A stretch of 64,000 nt of DNA, from contig OZ252018.1 of assembly GCA_965247535.1 (NCBI GenBank), forward strand, positions 885,046 through 949,045. The letters are read 5' to 3'. Origin of the DNA: Dehalococcoidia bacterium (GTDB lineage: Bacteria; Chloroflexota; Dehalococcoidia; Lucifugimonadales; UBA2985). Shown one piece after another: positions 2,885 through 4,989 of the stretch. The notes under the pieces were generated by a model. The model made no database searches and had not been told where the DNA came from. It was given only the letters and a program-made list of their open reading frames with translations. The position numbers and the translations under genes are program-made. Position 1 is the first letter of the stretch, and each line of letters starts with the position of its first letter.

Positions 2885-2981
2885 TAGCGGCATTGCCTAT
2901 ACCAGCGATATGCCCCGCCTATCATCGGAGGCAGCGGGAGAGGGGCGGGGGCGAGCGGTCCGGCTGCTTATCTAGCAACTT

Positions 2982-4010
2982 TCAAGGTGGGCCATTTGTG
3001 CCACTTACAACACGTTCTAGGGCATTCGATACGCAGGTCAACATCGCGGTCGACTCCGCCTGCAATAGATGCCTGTTGTCCCTAGCATATGCTGGATCAA
3101 AAAGATACCTGAGAGCAGTGAACGCGCTCTCTGTTCTTCTCAAGAAGAGGCGGAGATTTTGCGATGTCCGTTCTCTACCTATGCTTTCCAGCTCATTCTT
3201 GAATTCCCTATCGACCGCTTCTTGCAAGTCAAAGGCCAGGAAGTCAAACAACTTCAGAAGTTTGTGTGTCTTGTATTCGTCTTTAATCTCGCCAGCTTGT
3301 CTGTGCAGCAAGTACTTCATCTCATACTCTATGGCTAGTGGCAGGAAAATCTGCGCTGCAAATACTAATTCGCCTCTTTGTTCCAACAGTCCTGTCTCAA
3401 ATAACAAGCGGTATGCTGAACGGGCGCTGTTGGCCAAGAATAATACGAAGCTCGGGTCAGTTAAAGCTCGAACCTCTGAATCATCTTTCATCTTTAGAAA
3501 TGCTTCTCGTAGGGCTTTCTGCTCTTTGCTCTCTCCTACAAACGTTATCGTGACTTCTCCTTGCTCCCGCTCTACCACCCTACCCCCTACTGTGGTTTCT
3601 CTAGTTATTGTGGCACTTTGGGGAACACTGCGAGGCTTGGTTCCACGGTCCGACCGTTTCAGAGAACCCACGCCGGACAGAATCAACTCTTCGTCCCCAG
3701 CCTTCGTGAAGCGCCAGTTGACTCGGGCTTGCCCAGACCGCCATGGACCAAGTACCAACTGATCATTGGAGTCTCTAACTCTCAGCCGGAAACGCACTGG
3801 AACAGTCTTGTCCACAAGCGGTCGCATAACTGCAGATGTACTATCATTTGGTGGGAATTCAGTATGCAGGGTCCAACTTCCTCGCTTTTCTTCACAGGAT
3901 GCCCAACCTCCCACATATTGCGATATGTTTCTTCCATCTACTACCAGATCAAGGGCTCTCATATCGTTGTCTTGTCCAGACTCTTCGTCGTGTTTCTGCG
4001 CGTCCAGCAT
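2982..4010 (-). CDS. hypothetical 342-aa protein: beta-rich N-terminal half and alpha-helical C-terminal half, family unknown
   Basis: Uninterrupted ORF in a visibly AT-richer stretch. Its ATG overlaps the TGA of the upstream HicB-like gene (TGATG), and an AGGAGGAG SD sits 8 nt upstream. I recognise no family motif. Confidence 0.6.
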   Translation of the reverse strand: MLDAQKHDEESGQDNDMRALDLVVDGRNISQYVGGWASCEEKRGSWTLHTEFPPNDSTSAVMRPLVDKTVPVRFRLRVRDSNDQLVLGPWRSGQARVNWRFTKAGDEELILSGVGSLKRSDRGTKPRSVPQSATITRETTVGGRVVEREQGEVTITFVGESKEQKALREAFLKMKDDSEVRALTDPSFVLFLANSARSAYRLLFETGLLEQRGELVFAAQIFLPLAIEYEMKYLLHRQAGEIKDEYKTHKLLKLFDFLAFDLQEAVDREFKNELESIGRERTSQNLRLFLRRTESAFTALRYLFDPAYARDNRHLLQAESTAMLTCVSNALERVVSGTNGPP

Positions 4011-4246
4011 CAAAACTGCTCCTCCTGTCCTATCCGCCGTGCCGCGTCCGTGAAGGGCTGCACCTCATGCAGCCGACGCTGGACCTCGCCGGCAGAAGCC
4101 GTCTCGTAAAAGAGCTCAAGCGCTTCCTTAAGGTTGGCACGAGCCTCGGACACGCTCTCGCCTTGGCTTGCGATGTCCAGCTCAGGGCAGAGTGCGACGT
4201 AGAAGTCGCCTTCGCGCTCGATAATCGCAGTCATTTGTCTAATCAT
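4010..4246 (-). CDS. HicB-like (UPF0150-type) antitoxin-fold protein, short form without a DNA-binding domain
   Basis: 'AIIEREGDFYVALCPELDIASQGESVSEARANLKEALELFYETAS..RRLHEV' matches the short HicB-family pattern. A GGGAGG SD lies upstream of the ATG. Confidence 0.7.
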   Translation of the reverse strand: MIRQMTAIIEREGDFYVALCPELDIASQGESVSEARANLKEALELFYETASAGEVQRRLHEVQPFTDAARRIGQEEQF

Positions 4247-4436
4247 CTGTGACCTCCCGGTTATCCGTTTCGAATCTCAGGATCATCATTTCGTCGTGAG
4301 CAGCCCCTACCCCTCACCCACCAGCCCCCGGAGCCCCGCGATCCGTCGCGCGGTGTCTACGAAGTACTCCTCGACCGCCGTGGTCAGCTTGGTAGTGGTT
4401 GGTGGCATGGGCCGAAGTGAAACCTACTTGAATTCC

Positions 4437-4734
4437 CTACGCCGCGGGCTGCGGCCGGTATGGCTCTACCCGTATCCGGTCTTCACCCTTGCGCGCTTCT
4501 GCAAGGTCGTAGGAAGTCTGCCGGCGTAGCCAGAAATCCGCACTGGACCATCCAGCCTTCTCAAGGCGAATGGGCCATGTCGGGCGAGATCGCCGCGTGA
4601 CCATTCAATACCCGAGAAAGGGTGTGACGGGCAACTCCCAGAACCTCCGCAGCCTCGGTGACACTCAGGCCAAGGGGCTCTAGACAGTTCCCCCTGATGC
4701 TGCGACCAGGATGAGGTGGATTCTTCATAGCCAT
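4437..4734 (-). pseudogene. higA: higA (HTH/XRE antitoxin) carrying a +1 frameshift
   Basis: '[52 protein letters not shown]' ends prematurely. Skipping one C in the CCC run at 4572-4574 restores '[28 protein letters not shown]..', the typical HigA C-terminus, with a stop at 4437. Confidence 0.75.
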
Positions 4735-4750: not shown

Positions 4751-4989
4751 TTATTGATAGTCAACCAGATCTACGTCGCAAGAGTCGCCATTTTCAAGAG
4801 GGCATGGGCCTATTCTACGCCGCAGTCGCGTTAGGGGCAAAGCGCGCAACCGCGTACCGGAGTCCCGCAGGCGCCCGCGCGCCGACATTCGCCTCCCCAA
4901 GCCGCTCGCACGCCTCAGTCGACGCCTGCGGCGCACGCGACGCCGTTGGCGGCGTTACGTTTCGTGAAAGCAATCACGATTCCGCGCAT
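4751..4989 (-). pseudogene. higB: higB (RelE-fold toxin) remnant with multiple in-frame stops and frameshifts
   Basis: The C-terminal peptide '[15 protein letters not shown]' matches the HigB end 'FEDGDAYDVDYVDYH'. Upstream pieces ('MRGIVIAFTKRN', 'PAGLRY') lie in other frames and are interrupted by TGA/TAG. The remnant sits 16 nt upstream of higA. Confidence 0.55.

What the first reader, a model, noticed from the sequence alone, without database searches (positions are those of the whole stretch)
2982..4246. HicB-like antitoxin gene translationally coupled to an unclassifiable 342-aa protein instead of HicA
**Observed in the sequence**
- The 78-aa ORF has the short HicB/UPF0150 pattern (AIIEREGDFYVALCPELDIASQGESVSEARANLKEALELFYE) and no DNA-binding C-domain.
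- Its TGA shares a base with the ATG of the next ORF (TGATG at 4008-4012).
- An AGGAGGAG SD lies inside its 3' end, so the two genes are almost certainly co-translated.
- The 342-aa partner has a beta-rich N-terminal half (~170 aa) and an alpha-helical C-terminal half (..THKLLKLFDFLAFDLQEAVDREF..), with no motif I can assign.
- The partner gene is visibly AT-richer than the flanking gltA and korAB.
- The pair sits next to a decayed higBA pair.

**Established knowledge**
- HicB normally neutralises the ~60-80-aa HicA RNase.

**Inference**
- This may be a hybrid toxin-antitoxin or small defence module with a new effector recruited to a HicB-type neutraliser.
- It is the most likely undescribed system in the window.
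Basis: partly seen in the sequence, partly recalled or inferred. Interest (0 to 1): 0.72.

Follow-up and report, generated by a model that had tools for sequence, protein, structure and literature searches.

The report
Orphan hicB beside swapped-in HEPN gene
The overlapping gene pair is real, but it is probably an accident of gene-cassette swapping in a variable spot of a Dehalococcoidia genome: a leftover antitoxin gene (hicB without hicA) now abuts a mobile single gene for an uncharacterised two-domain protein with an RNase-type (HEPN) domain, a likely stand-alone phage-defence candidate rather than a new toxin-antitoxin pair.

Summary
Every sequence observation checks out: the 78-aa and 342-aa ORFs, the TGATG overlap, the Shine-Dalgarno (SD) site, the AT-rich partner gene and the decayed higBA.

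- **The hicB gene is an orphan.** It matches the canonical 73-aa HicB, which is normally followed by an overlapping hicA, only up to residue about 60. No hicA lies in the window.
- **The 342-aa gene sits in a swapped cassette.** Sister genomes with the same flanks (korAB-higBA-hicB* … gltA) carry a DUF4238 gene in exactly this slot. DUF4238 is a validated single-gene anti-phage system. The junctions lie about 23 nt upstream and 30-56 nt downstream of the 342-aa gene, so the overlap comes from hicB* reading into the cassette leader.
- **The 342-aa gene is autonomous elsewhere.** Across about 20 distinct loci of this small, Dehalococcoidia-only family, only one other has a HicB-like gene nearby, and no partner recurs. 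The gene is AT-rich, flanked by repeats or ISs, sometimes disrupted, and often near restriction-modification (RM) genes.
- **The C-terminal half is a HEPN domain.** It is PF05168-class, with R…D plus an upstream invariant His. The N-terminal half is a β-barrel with marginal Hcp/tail-tube resemblance.

One caveat remains: hicB* is under purifying selection.

Verdict: a new HEPN architecture and a likely stand-alone defence gene, not a HicB-neutralised toxin.

The parts
4010..4246 (-). hicB*: an orphan, 3'-remodelled HicB-family antitoxin gene (78 aa). Residues 1-61 (4064-4246) are canonical. The tail from about residue 60 (EVQPFTDAARRIGQEEQF) replaces the canonical DEVYVTHVEVAVG.
   Evidence: Searches give 85-97% identity to 73-aa HicB proteins over residues 1-61 only. 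One search shows the canonical copy followed by an overlapping PF07927 HicA. One search finds no HicA in the window. Searches give omega 0.087 against the L030 orthologue (p = 1e-6).
4032..4041 (.). Left junction of the variable cassette. Similarity to the syntenic DUF4238-carrying locus L030 ends here, and similarity to the cassette leader in L020 starts at about 4033.
   Evidence: DNA alignments.
4011..4033 (-). Cassette leader of about 23 nt. It carries the SD site AGGAGGAG (4019-4026) and supplies the TGA that ends hicB* (4010-4012). There is no room for a promoter.
   Evidence: sequence. One search shows the same leader, ATAGGxxxGAGGAGCAGTyTTGATG, directly after an IS3 end in L020.
2982..4010 (-). 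Gene for the 342-aa two-domain protein. It belongs to a family restricted to Dehalococcoidia/Chloroflexota MAGs. This copy is intact and keeps all family-invariant residues.
   Evidence: One search finds only 13 representatives below 1e-30 among 1.84 billion proteins.
3543..3959 (-). N-terminal beta-barrel domain (residues ~18-156). It bears a marginal resemblance to Hcp, phage tail-tube and baseplate-hub folds.
   Evidence: AF2 models (pLDDT 81-84). Foldseek: Hcp3 3he1 prob 0.96, TM 0.41-0.45, E > 0.1; BFVD baseplate and tail proteins prob ~1, TMt 0.16-0.5.
2994..3452 (-). C-terminal HEPN domain (residues ~187-339) of the PF05168 / HEPN-T class. Invariant residues are E228, K232, H249, R301, Y302 and H314. 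D305 is nearly invariant.
   Evidence: 15 of 26 members give weak PF05168 hits; 28 of 42 remote relatives hit PF05168 (best 1.7e-7); hhalign 99.6%, E 1.6e-24; best BFVD hit is a HEPN protein (E 3.9e-4, TMt 0.62). PDB 4nqf, prob 0.94.
2926..2952 (.). Right junction of the variable cassette. From here on, the window again aligns with L030 through the gltA promoter and CDS.
   Evidence: DNA alignment.
4440..4734 (-). Frameshifted higA (HTH_3) pseudogene. higB is missing.
   Evidence: HTH_3 hit; two tblastn pieces in different frames against the intact HigA of L030, and no HigB hit.
4812..4840 (-). Promoter-like site (TTGCCC-17-TAGAAT) upstream of higA'. It is the only candidate promoter upstream of hicB* and the cassette on this strand.
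   Evidence: This is a consensus scan only; function is inferred.

Best explanation
The interval between korAB and gltA is a small variable hot spot in a Dehalococcoidia genome.

**Origin of the pair (shown by comparison)**
- The spot once held higBA and hicBA modules. In the window, higB is gone, higA is frameshifted, and hicB has lost its partner hicA and its canonical last ~13 codons.
- Directly after this remnant sits a gene-sized cassette of about 1.1 kb, with a ~23-nt leader and a 30-56-nt trailer. It encodes the 342-aa protein.
- Sister genomes with the same flanks carry a DUF4238 gene in this position.
- The TGATG overlap exists because the hicB* reading frame runs across the junction and ends at the first stop in the cassette leader.

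**Transcription (inferred)**
- The cassette has no promoter space. It is probably transcribed, and perhaps translationally coupled, from the hig/hic promoter.

**What the 342-aa protein is**
- Shown: it is an autonomous, horizontally mobile single-gene unit that stands alone in almost all other genomes.
- Inferred: it is a stand-alone defence or abortive-infection-type effector. Its C-terminal HEPN domain probably cleaves RNA through the alternative R...D plus upstream-His site described for HEPN-T and AbiV. Its N-terminal beta-barrel probably keeps it inactive or senses a trigger in cis, taking the role an antitoxin would play.

**What hicB* does (inferred)**
- It is retained for a reason unrelated to this cargo, such as neutralising a HicA encoded elsewhere.
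For: **Orphan hicB**
- Canonical 73-aa HicB proteins end ...RRLHDEVYVTHVEVAVG. The window copy diverges after RRLH.
- The canonical copy is followed by an overlapping PF07927 HicA gene.
- No HicA lies in the 64-kb window.

**Cassette swap**
- L030 and L031 have sigmaECF-korB-korA-HigB-HigA-hicB*(77 aa, same EVQPFTDAA tail)-DUF4238-gltA-Methyltransf_28.
- DNA identity to the window is high through hicB* up to about 4035-4041, and again from about 2926-2952.
- L020 has the same cassette (83-89% aa identity) with the same ~23-nt leader, but it follows an IS3 end and is itself split by an IS.

**Autonomy**
- No HicB-like sequence is found in 18 of about 20 distinct loci.
- No recurrent neighbour is found among 102 larger ORFs.
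- No conserved small flanking ORF is found.

**Mobility and accessory nature**
- Every family gene is 6-20 GC points below its flanks.
- Some copies lie between MITE-like or direct repeats 1.56-1.72 kb apart.
- Copies in L020 and L073 are disrupted by ISs, and the L014 copy is frameshifted.
- Neighbours include type IIG RM, TIR_2, DUF5677, KAP NTPase, DUF3644, PD-Lambda-4_A, REases and transposases.

**Positional allele**
- DUF4238 is a validated single-gene anti-T7 system (bioRxiv 10.1101/2021.01.21.427644).

**HEPN domain**
- The residue pattern (R301, D305, invariant H249 upstream) matches the HEPN-T / AbiV 'alternative active site' description in PMC3710099.
Against: **Points favouring a functional pair**
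- hicB* is not decaying. Omega is 0.087 against the L030 orthologue at dS 0.44, similar to gltA at 0.063. It therefore has some function, and I cannot exclude that the function involves the downstream cargo.
- A HicB-like gene occurs within 1 kb upstream in a second, unrelated locus (L021). That is more than a random genomic background would give.

**Weaknesses in the functional inference**
- Defence function is inferred only from context and domain content. PADLOC has no match, and about half of the neighbourhoods are mostly housekeeping.
- The canonical Rx4-6H motif is absent, so RNase activity is uncertain.
- The Hcp-like reading of the N-domain rests on TM scores of 0.41-0.45 with E > 0.1.
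- The direction of the swap (which cargo is ancestral) is not resolved, because only two lineages carry hicB*.
Confidence: 0.62

Rival explanations
1. hicB* and the 342-aa protein form a true hybrid toxin-antitoxin or defence pair. The short HicB-type protein binds and neutralises the HEPN protein, and the two are co-translated.
For: - The genes overlap by 4 nt, with a strong SD site inside the upstream ORF.
- The cassette has no promoter space of its own.
- hicB* is under purifying selection.
- A second locus, L021, has a HicB-like gene 740 bp upstream of a family member.
- HEPN proteins are often toxins that need a neutraliser (PMC3710099).
Against: - The pair is absent from 18 of about 20 loci, including the closest relatives: L020 at 83%, L073 at 62%, L074 at 56%.
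- The identical hicB* variant precedes DUF4238 in the syntenic locus, with a 72-nt gap.
- The stop codon, SD site and overlap all belong to the cassette leader. The same leader is seen after an IS3 end in L020.
- The natural partner of this HicB family is HicA.
- hicB* has lost the canonical C-terminal segment.
- In L021 an opposite-strand ORF separates the two genes.
Confidence: 0.1
2. The 342-aa protein is not a nuclease effector. Its HEPN domain is a catalytically inactive binding or regulatory module of the PF05168 'substrate-binding' type, and the gene is accessory cargo with a function unrelated to defence or toxicity.
For: - The canonical Rx4-6H motif is absent. The conserved ExxxK, H and RY residues are the generic PF05168 signature.
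- PMC3710099 notes that many PF05168-type domains act with nucleotidyltransferases as substrate-binding modules.
- There is no PADLOC hit.
- Several loci lie among housekeeping genes.
Against: - Ten polar residues are invariant across the family (E228, K232, H249, D256, Q263, R287, R301, H314, E332 among them). This argues for an active site rather than a passive scaffold.
- No MNT or nucleotidyltransferase partner is nearby.
- The AT-rich mobile cassette behaviour, the repeated inactivation by ISs, and the shared slot with DUF4238 all fit conflict genes.
Confidence: 0.18
3. The apparent selection on hicB* and its association with the cassette are by-products of recombination. hicB sequences are abundant and highly conserved in these genomes, and they serve as homology patches for cassette exchange and gene conversion. 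hicB* would then be a landing pad rather than a functional gene.
For: - More than 7,900 homologues exist, many at 85-97% identity across different MAGs.
- Several have altered 3' ends at different break points: P0061, P0063, P0071, P0047 and P0048.
- hicB-like genes lie next to family members in two unrelated loci.
- hicA is missing after otherwise canonical hicB in several loci.
Against: - Between the window and L030, dS for hicB* (0.44) is as high as for gltA (0.36). Recent conversion from a common donor is therefore unlikely.
- Break points differ between loci, so there is no single recombination site.
- No repeats flank the cassette in the window.
Confidence: 0.1

Closest known systems
HicAB type II toxin-antitoxin system (short HicB of ~73 aa without a DNA-binding domain, hicB-hicA gene order)
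   Same: Residues 1-61 of the 78-aa protein are 85-97% identical to canonical 73-aa HicB proteins. One of these (P0105) has an overlapping PF07927 HicA gene downstream.
   Different: There is no HicA here or anywhere in the 64-kb window. The canonical C-terminal ~13 residues are replaced. The downstream gene is unrelated to HicA.
HEPN-T / PF05168 class of HEPN domains, including AF0298-type and AbiV-type proteins with an alternative active site (Anantharaman et al. 2013, PMC3710099)
   Same: The domain shows the ExxxK helix, invariant His, and R followed by D instead of His. The profile-profile link is 99.6%. Best structural matches are HEPN proteins. PMC3710099 also notes clustering with RM operons for this class.
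   Different: Individual sequences stay below the Pfam gathering score. The domain is fused to a ~140-aa N-terminal beta-barrel plus a long linker helix. I did not find this architecture among the remote relatives, which are mostly 120-200-aa stand-alone HEPN proteins.
HEPN-MNT type VII toxin-antitoxin systems
   Same: The toxin-type domain belongs to the same superfamily.
   Different: No MNT or nucleotidyltransferase gene is adjacent in any locus, apart from an AbiEii-like fragment on the opposite strand in L021. There is no RX4HXY motif.
Single-protein HEPN abortive-infection and defence effectors with cis or trans regulation (AbiV, AbiD/F, AbiJ, RnlA/LsoA, RloC)
   Same: These are multi-domain proteins with a C-terminal HEPN domain, carried as accessory and mobile genes in variable regions. 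The proposed cis-regulation by an N-terminal domain parallels RloC, as described in PMC3710099.
   Different: There is no detectable sequence similarity to any of them: PADLOC, Pfam and PHROG are all negative. The N-terminal domain is different. No phenotype is known.
DUF4238 single-gene anti-phage system, and defence hot spots between conserved core genes
   Same: It occupies exactly the same slot between hicB* and gltA in sister genomes. It is a single gene of similar size.
   Different: The protein is unrelated. DUF4238 has experimental anti-T7 activity, whereas the 342-aa family has none on record.

Membership tests
HicAB type II TA | The antitoxin belongs to the HicB family (N-terminal HicB/UPF0150-like domain). 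| tested here: met
   Pfam is below threshold. Residues 1-61 are 85-97% identical to proteins named HicB family antitoxin. One of them (P0105) is paired with PF07927 HicA. PHROG HicB-like hits at 1.5e-4.
HicAB type II TA | An adjacent HicA toxin gene (PF07927). | tested here: not met
   tblastn with the cognate-type HicA finds nothing in the 64-kb window. The downstream gene is the 342-aa HEPN protein.
HicAB type II TA | A complete HicB domain, including the C-terminal segment ...DEVYVTHVEVAVG. | tested here: not met
   The sequence diverges after residue ~60 at both protein and DNA level. Whether the new tail can substitute structurally was not tested.
Two-gene TA / defence module (hicB* + 342-aa gene) | The gene pair is conserved across genomes. 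| tested here: not met
   The overlapping pair occurs only in the window. A HicB-like gene lies within 1 kb in 2 of about 20 distinct loci. The same hicB* is paired with DUF4238 in L030 and L031.
HEPN superfamily (PF05168 / HEPN-T class) | Sequence-profile membership. | tested here: met
   The link is indirect. The window protein gives E 0.14, and 15 of 26 family members give weak hits (best 1.6e-3), all below the gathering score. A family profile finds small proteins, of which 28 of 42 hit PF05168 (best 1.7e-7). hhalign between the two sets gives 99.6%, E 1.6e-24.
HEPN superfamily (PF05168 / HEPN-T class) | A helical-bundle HEPN fold. | tested here: met
   In the AF2 model, residues 186-338 are all-helical with pLDDT mostly above 85. 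The best BFVD match is a HEPN domain protein (E 3.9e-4, prob 1.00, TMt 0.62). PDB 4nqf, a HEPN domain protein, matches at prob 0.94, TMt 0.53. Support is moderate.
HEPN superfamily (catalytically active RNases) | The canonical Rx4-6H motif. | tested here: not met
   R301 is invariant, but no His lies at +5 to +7. D305 is at +4 and H314 at +13. The pattern fits the 'D replaces H, conserved H elsewhere' variant of HEPN-T and AbiV in PMC3710099. Activity cannot be tested here.
HEPN-MNT type VII TA | An adjacent minimal nucleotidyltransferase antitoxin. | tested here: not met
   No NTase appears among the neighbours. The only exception is an AbiEii-like fragment on the opposite strand in L021.
Hcp / phage tail-tube fold (N-terminal domain) | Structural similarity of the beta-barrel. 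| tested here: inconclusive
   The domain model has pLDDT 81. Hcp3 3he1 matches at prob 0.96 but TM 0.41-0.45 and E 0.14. Lambda gpV, VgrG and a monocin cap are weaker. BFVD baseplate and tail proteins match at prob ~1 with TMt 0.16-0.5.
Known anti-phage defence systems (PADLOC-DB v2) | A match to a defence protein model. | tested here: not met
   Neither protein has a PADLOC hit at E <= 1.

The most novel reading that the evidence does not exclude
The N-terminal Hcp/tail-tube-like beta-barrel is a molecular mimic. It engages assembling phage tail-tube or baseplate proteins, or is displaced by them. That event releases the fused HEPN domain to cleave RNA. This would be a single-protein 'assembly-sensing' abortive-infection system with a sensor-effector combination not yet described.

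A second, less likely novel reading: the conserved hicB* is a generic gatekeeper of a cassette slot. It would control whichever effector (HEPN protein or DUF4238) is inserted behind it.
Probability: 0.1. Interest if true: 0.75.

Novelty: new variant of a known kind. Interest (0 to 1): 0.36.

Why it matters
- **A caution for genome scans.** A tight overlap with a strong SD site can arise purely from cassette replacement behind a truncated gene. Synteny comparison can tell such an accident from a real module.
- **A defence hot spot in an understudied group.** Dehalococcoidia are uncultivated and their defence repertoire is poorly known. This hot spot exchanges single-gene cargo between conserved core genes, and one allele is the validated DUF4238 system.
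- **A testable new candidate.** The other allele is a new two-domain HEPN family. If active, it would extend the HEPN-T / AbiV 'alternative active site' group to a new sensor-effector architecture.
- **An open question about orphan antitoxins.** The hicB remnant is under purifying selection without its toxin. This bears on what toxin-less antitoxins do.

Tried and rejected
**Direct family scans**
- Scans of the 342-aa protein against Pfam, NCBIfam, PADLOC and PHROGs gave nothing except a sub-threshold HEPN hit.
- Sequence and profile searches against PDB sequences gave nothing meaningful.
- Foldseek on the full-length model against the PDB gave no hit with E < 0.001.

**Searches for a conserved partner**
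- tblastn with HicB against all loci, Pfam and PADLOC census of 102 neighbouring ORFs, and clustering of 395 small flanking ORFs found no recurrent partner.

**Searches of other collections**
- The family does not occur in IMG/VR viral contigs.
- I looked for more lineages carrying the hicB* tail. A strict pattern in JGI metagenomes gave 0 hits. A looser pattern gave 39 hits, all due to chance, with no HicB by tblastn.
- The look-up of encoding contigs found no record of the window's own protein P0001.

**Other checks**
- The C-terminal extensions of the fused relatives P0169 and P0170 have no Pfam or PDB match.
- No repeats flank the cassette in the window.
- No intrinsic terminator follows the gene. 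The only terminator-like site lies inside the CDS.

**Ideas I dropped**
- That hicB* is a decaying pseudogene: dN/dS contradicts it.
- That the upstream 34-codon ORF (around 4300-4405) is a hicA remnant: it has no similarity to HicA.
Full report
**1. Observation**

The two ORFs are as described: a 78-aa ORF at 4010-4246 (-) and a 342-aa ORF at 2982-4010 (-). The TGA of the first (4012-4010) shares a base with the ATG of the second (4010-4008). AGGAGGAG lies at 4019-4026. The partner gene has GC 0.49, against 0.63 for the window. Upstream, higA is split by a frameshift and higB is missing.

**2. The small gene is a HicB-family gene that has lost its end and its toxin**

Pfam hits are sub-threshold. 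Even so, more than 7,900 homologues exist. The closest are 73-aa proteins, 85-97% identical over residues 1-61, and some are named 'type II toxin-antitoxin system HicB family antitoxin'.

Those proteins end ...RRLHDEVYVTHVEVAVG. The window protein diverges after RRLH into EVQPFTDAARRIGQEEQF.

The canonical gene (P0105, 24 contigs read) is followed in L022 and L024 by an overlapping 72-aa PF07927 HicA gene. It sits next to a type ISP RM enzyme and a GmrSD-type gene. The natural partner of this HicB is therefore HicA, encoded downstream. tblastn with that HicA finds nothing in the 64-kb window.

**3. The 342-aa gene is a swapped-in cassette**

One other cluster (P0048, 77 aa) shares the abnormal EVQPFTDAA tail. 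Its loci L030-L033 are syntenic with the window: sigma-ECF, korB, korA, HigB, HigA, hicB*, then a 284-aa DUF4238 gene, then gltA and Methyltransf_28.

DNA alignment shows high identity between the window and L030 through hicB* up to window position ~4035-4041. No similarity follows until ~2926-2952, where identity resumes and continues into the gltA promoter and CDS.

The exchanged segment in the window is about 1.1 kb. It holds only the 342-aa gene, a ~23-nt leader and 30-56 nt of trailer.

A third relative, L020, carries the same cassette (83-89% aa identity) on the korAB side. There the same leader (ATAGGxxxGAGGAGCAGTyTTGATG) follows the end of an IS3 element, and the gene itself is split by a second IS.

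The SD site, the TGA and the overlap therefore belong to the cassette leader. hicB* simply reads across the junction until that stop. In L030 the same hicB* stops 72 nt before DUF4238, with no overlap.

**4. The pair is not conserved and the 342-aa gene is autonomous and mobile**

The family is small. There are 46 clusters at 90% identity, all unnamed, and the eleven loci recovered from the genome collection are all titled Dehalococcoidia MAGs. A profile search of 1.84 billion representatives finds only 13 below 1e-30.

In about 20 distinct loci I found a HicB-like gene only in the window and in L021. In L021 it lies 740 bp upstream, also 3'-altered, with an opposite-strand AbiEii-like fragment in between. 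The closest relatives, L073 and L074, have none.

No neighbour recurs among 102 larger ORFs or among 395 small flanking ORFs. Most copies have 200-700 bp of non-coding DNA upstream.

Signs of mobility and accessory status:
- Every copy is 6-20 GC points below its flanks.
- In L002 the gene lies between two direct copies of a ~180-nt MITE-like element with 22-nt terminal inverted repeats, 1,721 nt apart.
- L018 has 43-nt direct repeats 1,558 nt apart, and L015 has 25-nt direct repeats 1,661 nt apart.
- ISs disrupt the copies in L020 and L073, and the L014 copy is frameshifted.
- Neighbours include type IIG RM, TIR_2, DUF5677, KAP NTPase, DUF3644, an ORC/CDC6-like ATPase, Eco29kI-type and other REases, PD-Lambda-4_A and many transposases. 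Several loci are mostly housekeeping.
- No copy is found in IMG/VR.

**5. What the 342-aa protein is**

AF2 (pLDDT 83.8) gives three parts: a beta domain (20-155), a long linker helix (162-183) and a helical domain (186-338). Conservation is concentrated in the helical half. Invariant residues include E228, Y229, K232, H249, D256, Q263, R287, R301, Y302, H314 and E332.

Evidence that the helical half is a HEPN domain:
- 15 of 26 members give weak PF05168 hits.
- The family profile retrieves 120-200-aa proteins over profile positions ~200-300.
- 28 of 42 of those hit PF05168 (best 1.7e-7).
- They share the LAxELxLKxLL...HxLxxLFxxLPxxxQ...WRY signature.
- hhalign between the two alignments gives 99.6%, E 1.6e-24 over residues 187-339.
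- The best BFVD structural match is a HEPN domain protein (E 3.9e-4, TMt 0.62). PDB 4nqf, a HEPN domain protein, scores prob 0.94.

The canonical Rx4-6H motif is absent: R301 is followed by D305, with no His at +5 to +7. This matches what Anantharaman et al. describe for HEPN-T (PF05168) and AbiV. There D replaces H, and a second conserved His N-terminal to the motif may form an alternative active site (PMC3710099). A 2024 preprint is titled 'HEPN-AbiV is an RNase in the antiphage system AbiV' (10.1101/2024.05.05.592566, listed; I read only the title and the start of the abstract).

The N-terminal domain, modelled alone (pLDDT 81), resembles Hcp and tail-tube proteins only marginally. Hcp3 scores prob 0.96, TM 0.41-0.45, E > 0.1. 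BFVD baseplate and tail proteins also appear. I treat this as a lead, not a finding.

**6. Mechanism**

Shown by comparison:
- Cassette replacement behind an orphan hicB*.
- Autonomy and mobility of the 342-aa gene.
- A HEPN domain in its C-terminal half.

Inferred:
- In the window the cassette depends on upstream transcription. The only promoter-like site on this strand is at 4840-4812, before higA'.
- The protein is a stand-alone defence or abortive-infection-type effector. This rests on its sharing a slot with DUF4238, which protects E. coli against T7 as a single gene. It also rests on its context and its HEPN domain.
- The N-domain regulates the HEPN domain in cis, by analogy with RloC.

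**7. The main point against a purely accidental pairing**

hicB* is under purifying selection. Between the window and L030, over codons 1-69, dS is 0.44, dN is 0.039 and omega is 0.087, against 0.063 for gltA. With 6 non-synonymous changes out of 22, the binomial p is 1.1e-6. So hicB* does something.

Candidate explanations:
- It neutralises a HicA encoded elsewhere. This is not testable in 64 kb.
- It has a role for the downstream cargo. This is unlikely because the cargo differs between lineages.
- Conversion from paralogues maintains it. This is unlikely because its dS equals that of gltA.

**8. Comparison and novelty**

The pair is not a member of the HicAB systems: it has no HicA and the HicB is incomplete. 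It is not a HEPN-MNT system either, as there is no MNT.

The 342-aa family belongs to the HEPN superfamily (HEPN-T class) by indirect profile and fold evidence. Its architecture (beta-barrel + linker + HEPN) did not appear among the relatives retrieved. I rate it a new variant of a known kind, namely single-protein HEPN conflict effectors carried as cargo in a variable hot spot.

**9. Verdict**

Interest is moderate (0.36). The locus holds an uncharacterised, testable defence candidate and a clean example of cassette exchange, but not the new hybrid TA system that was proposed.

Noticed in passing
L002:5701-5881 and L002:7423-7600 (also L001): The family gene lies between two direct copies of a ~180-nt MITE-like element with 22-23-nt terminal inverted repeats (CTAGAAGTCTGGCCGGGAACCC...), 1,721 nt apart. 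The layout resembles a composite transposon. L018 has 43-nt direct repeats 1,558 nt apart, and L015 has 25-nt direct repeats 1,661 nt apart.
   Followed up: partly
L022-L029:1-3433: The canonical hicB(-hicA) module recurs at 100% protein identity in at least 24 contigs. In each of the eight loci shown it sits directly downstream of a type ISP RM enzyme (N6_Mtase/Type_ISP_C), a GmrSD_N protein and a 394-aa unknown protein. Several copies have no hicA called. This may be one conserved defence island.
   Followed up: no
window:4010-4246: The toxin-less, 3'-remodelled hicB* is under purifying selection as strong as that on gltA (omega 0.087 vs 0.063). What the orphan antitoxin does is unexplained.
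   Followed up: partly
L020:6001-8544; L073:651-2508; L014:8001-8943: Three family copies are inactivated. L020 and L073 are split by DDE_Tnp_1-type ISs, and L014 is frameshifted. Several database members are C-terminal-only ORFs of 191-202 aa.
   Followed up: partly
P0169 (628 aa), P0170 (494 aa), L013:2799-4724: Some family members carry a 160-300-aa C-terminal extension. It has no Pfam or PDB sequence match.
   Followed up: partly
L021:4973-5676: A second 3'-altered HicB-like gene (P0061, 95 aa) and an opposite-strand 133-aa AbiEii-like (nucleotidyltransferase) fragment lie just upstream of a family member.
   Followed up: partly
L074:1-4203: A 1,871-aa DEAD/YjiV_N/Helicase_C/MZB protein lies immediately upstream of the family gene of P0003. 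This may be a helicase-type defence gene.
   Followed up: no
L003:5236-5976: In one genome the family gene is preceded, 25 nt upstream and on the same strand, by a 160-aa retropepsin-like protein (Asp_protease_2) and an 84-aa ORF.
   Followed up: no
window:4440-4734: higA is frameshifted and higB is deleted in the window. The syntenic L030 keeps an intact HigB (92 aa) and HigA (98 aa).
   Followed up: yes
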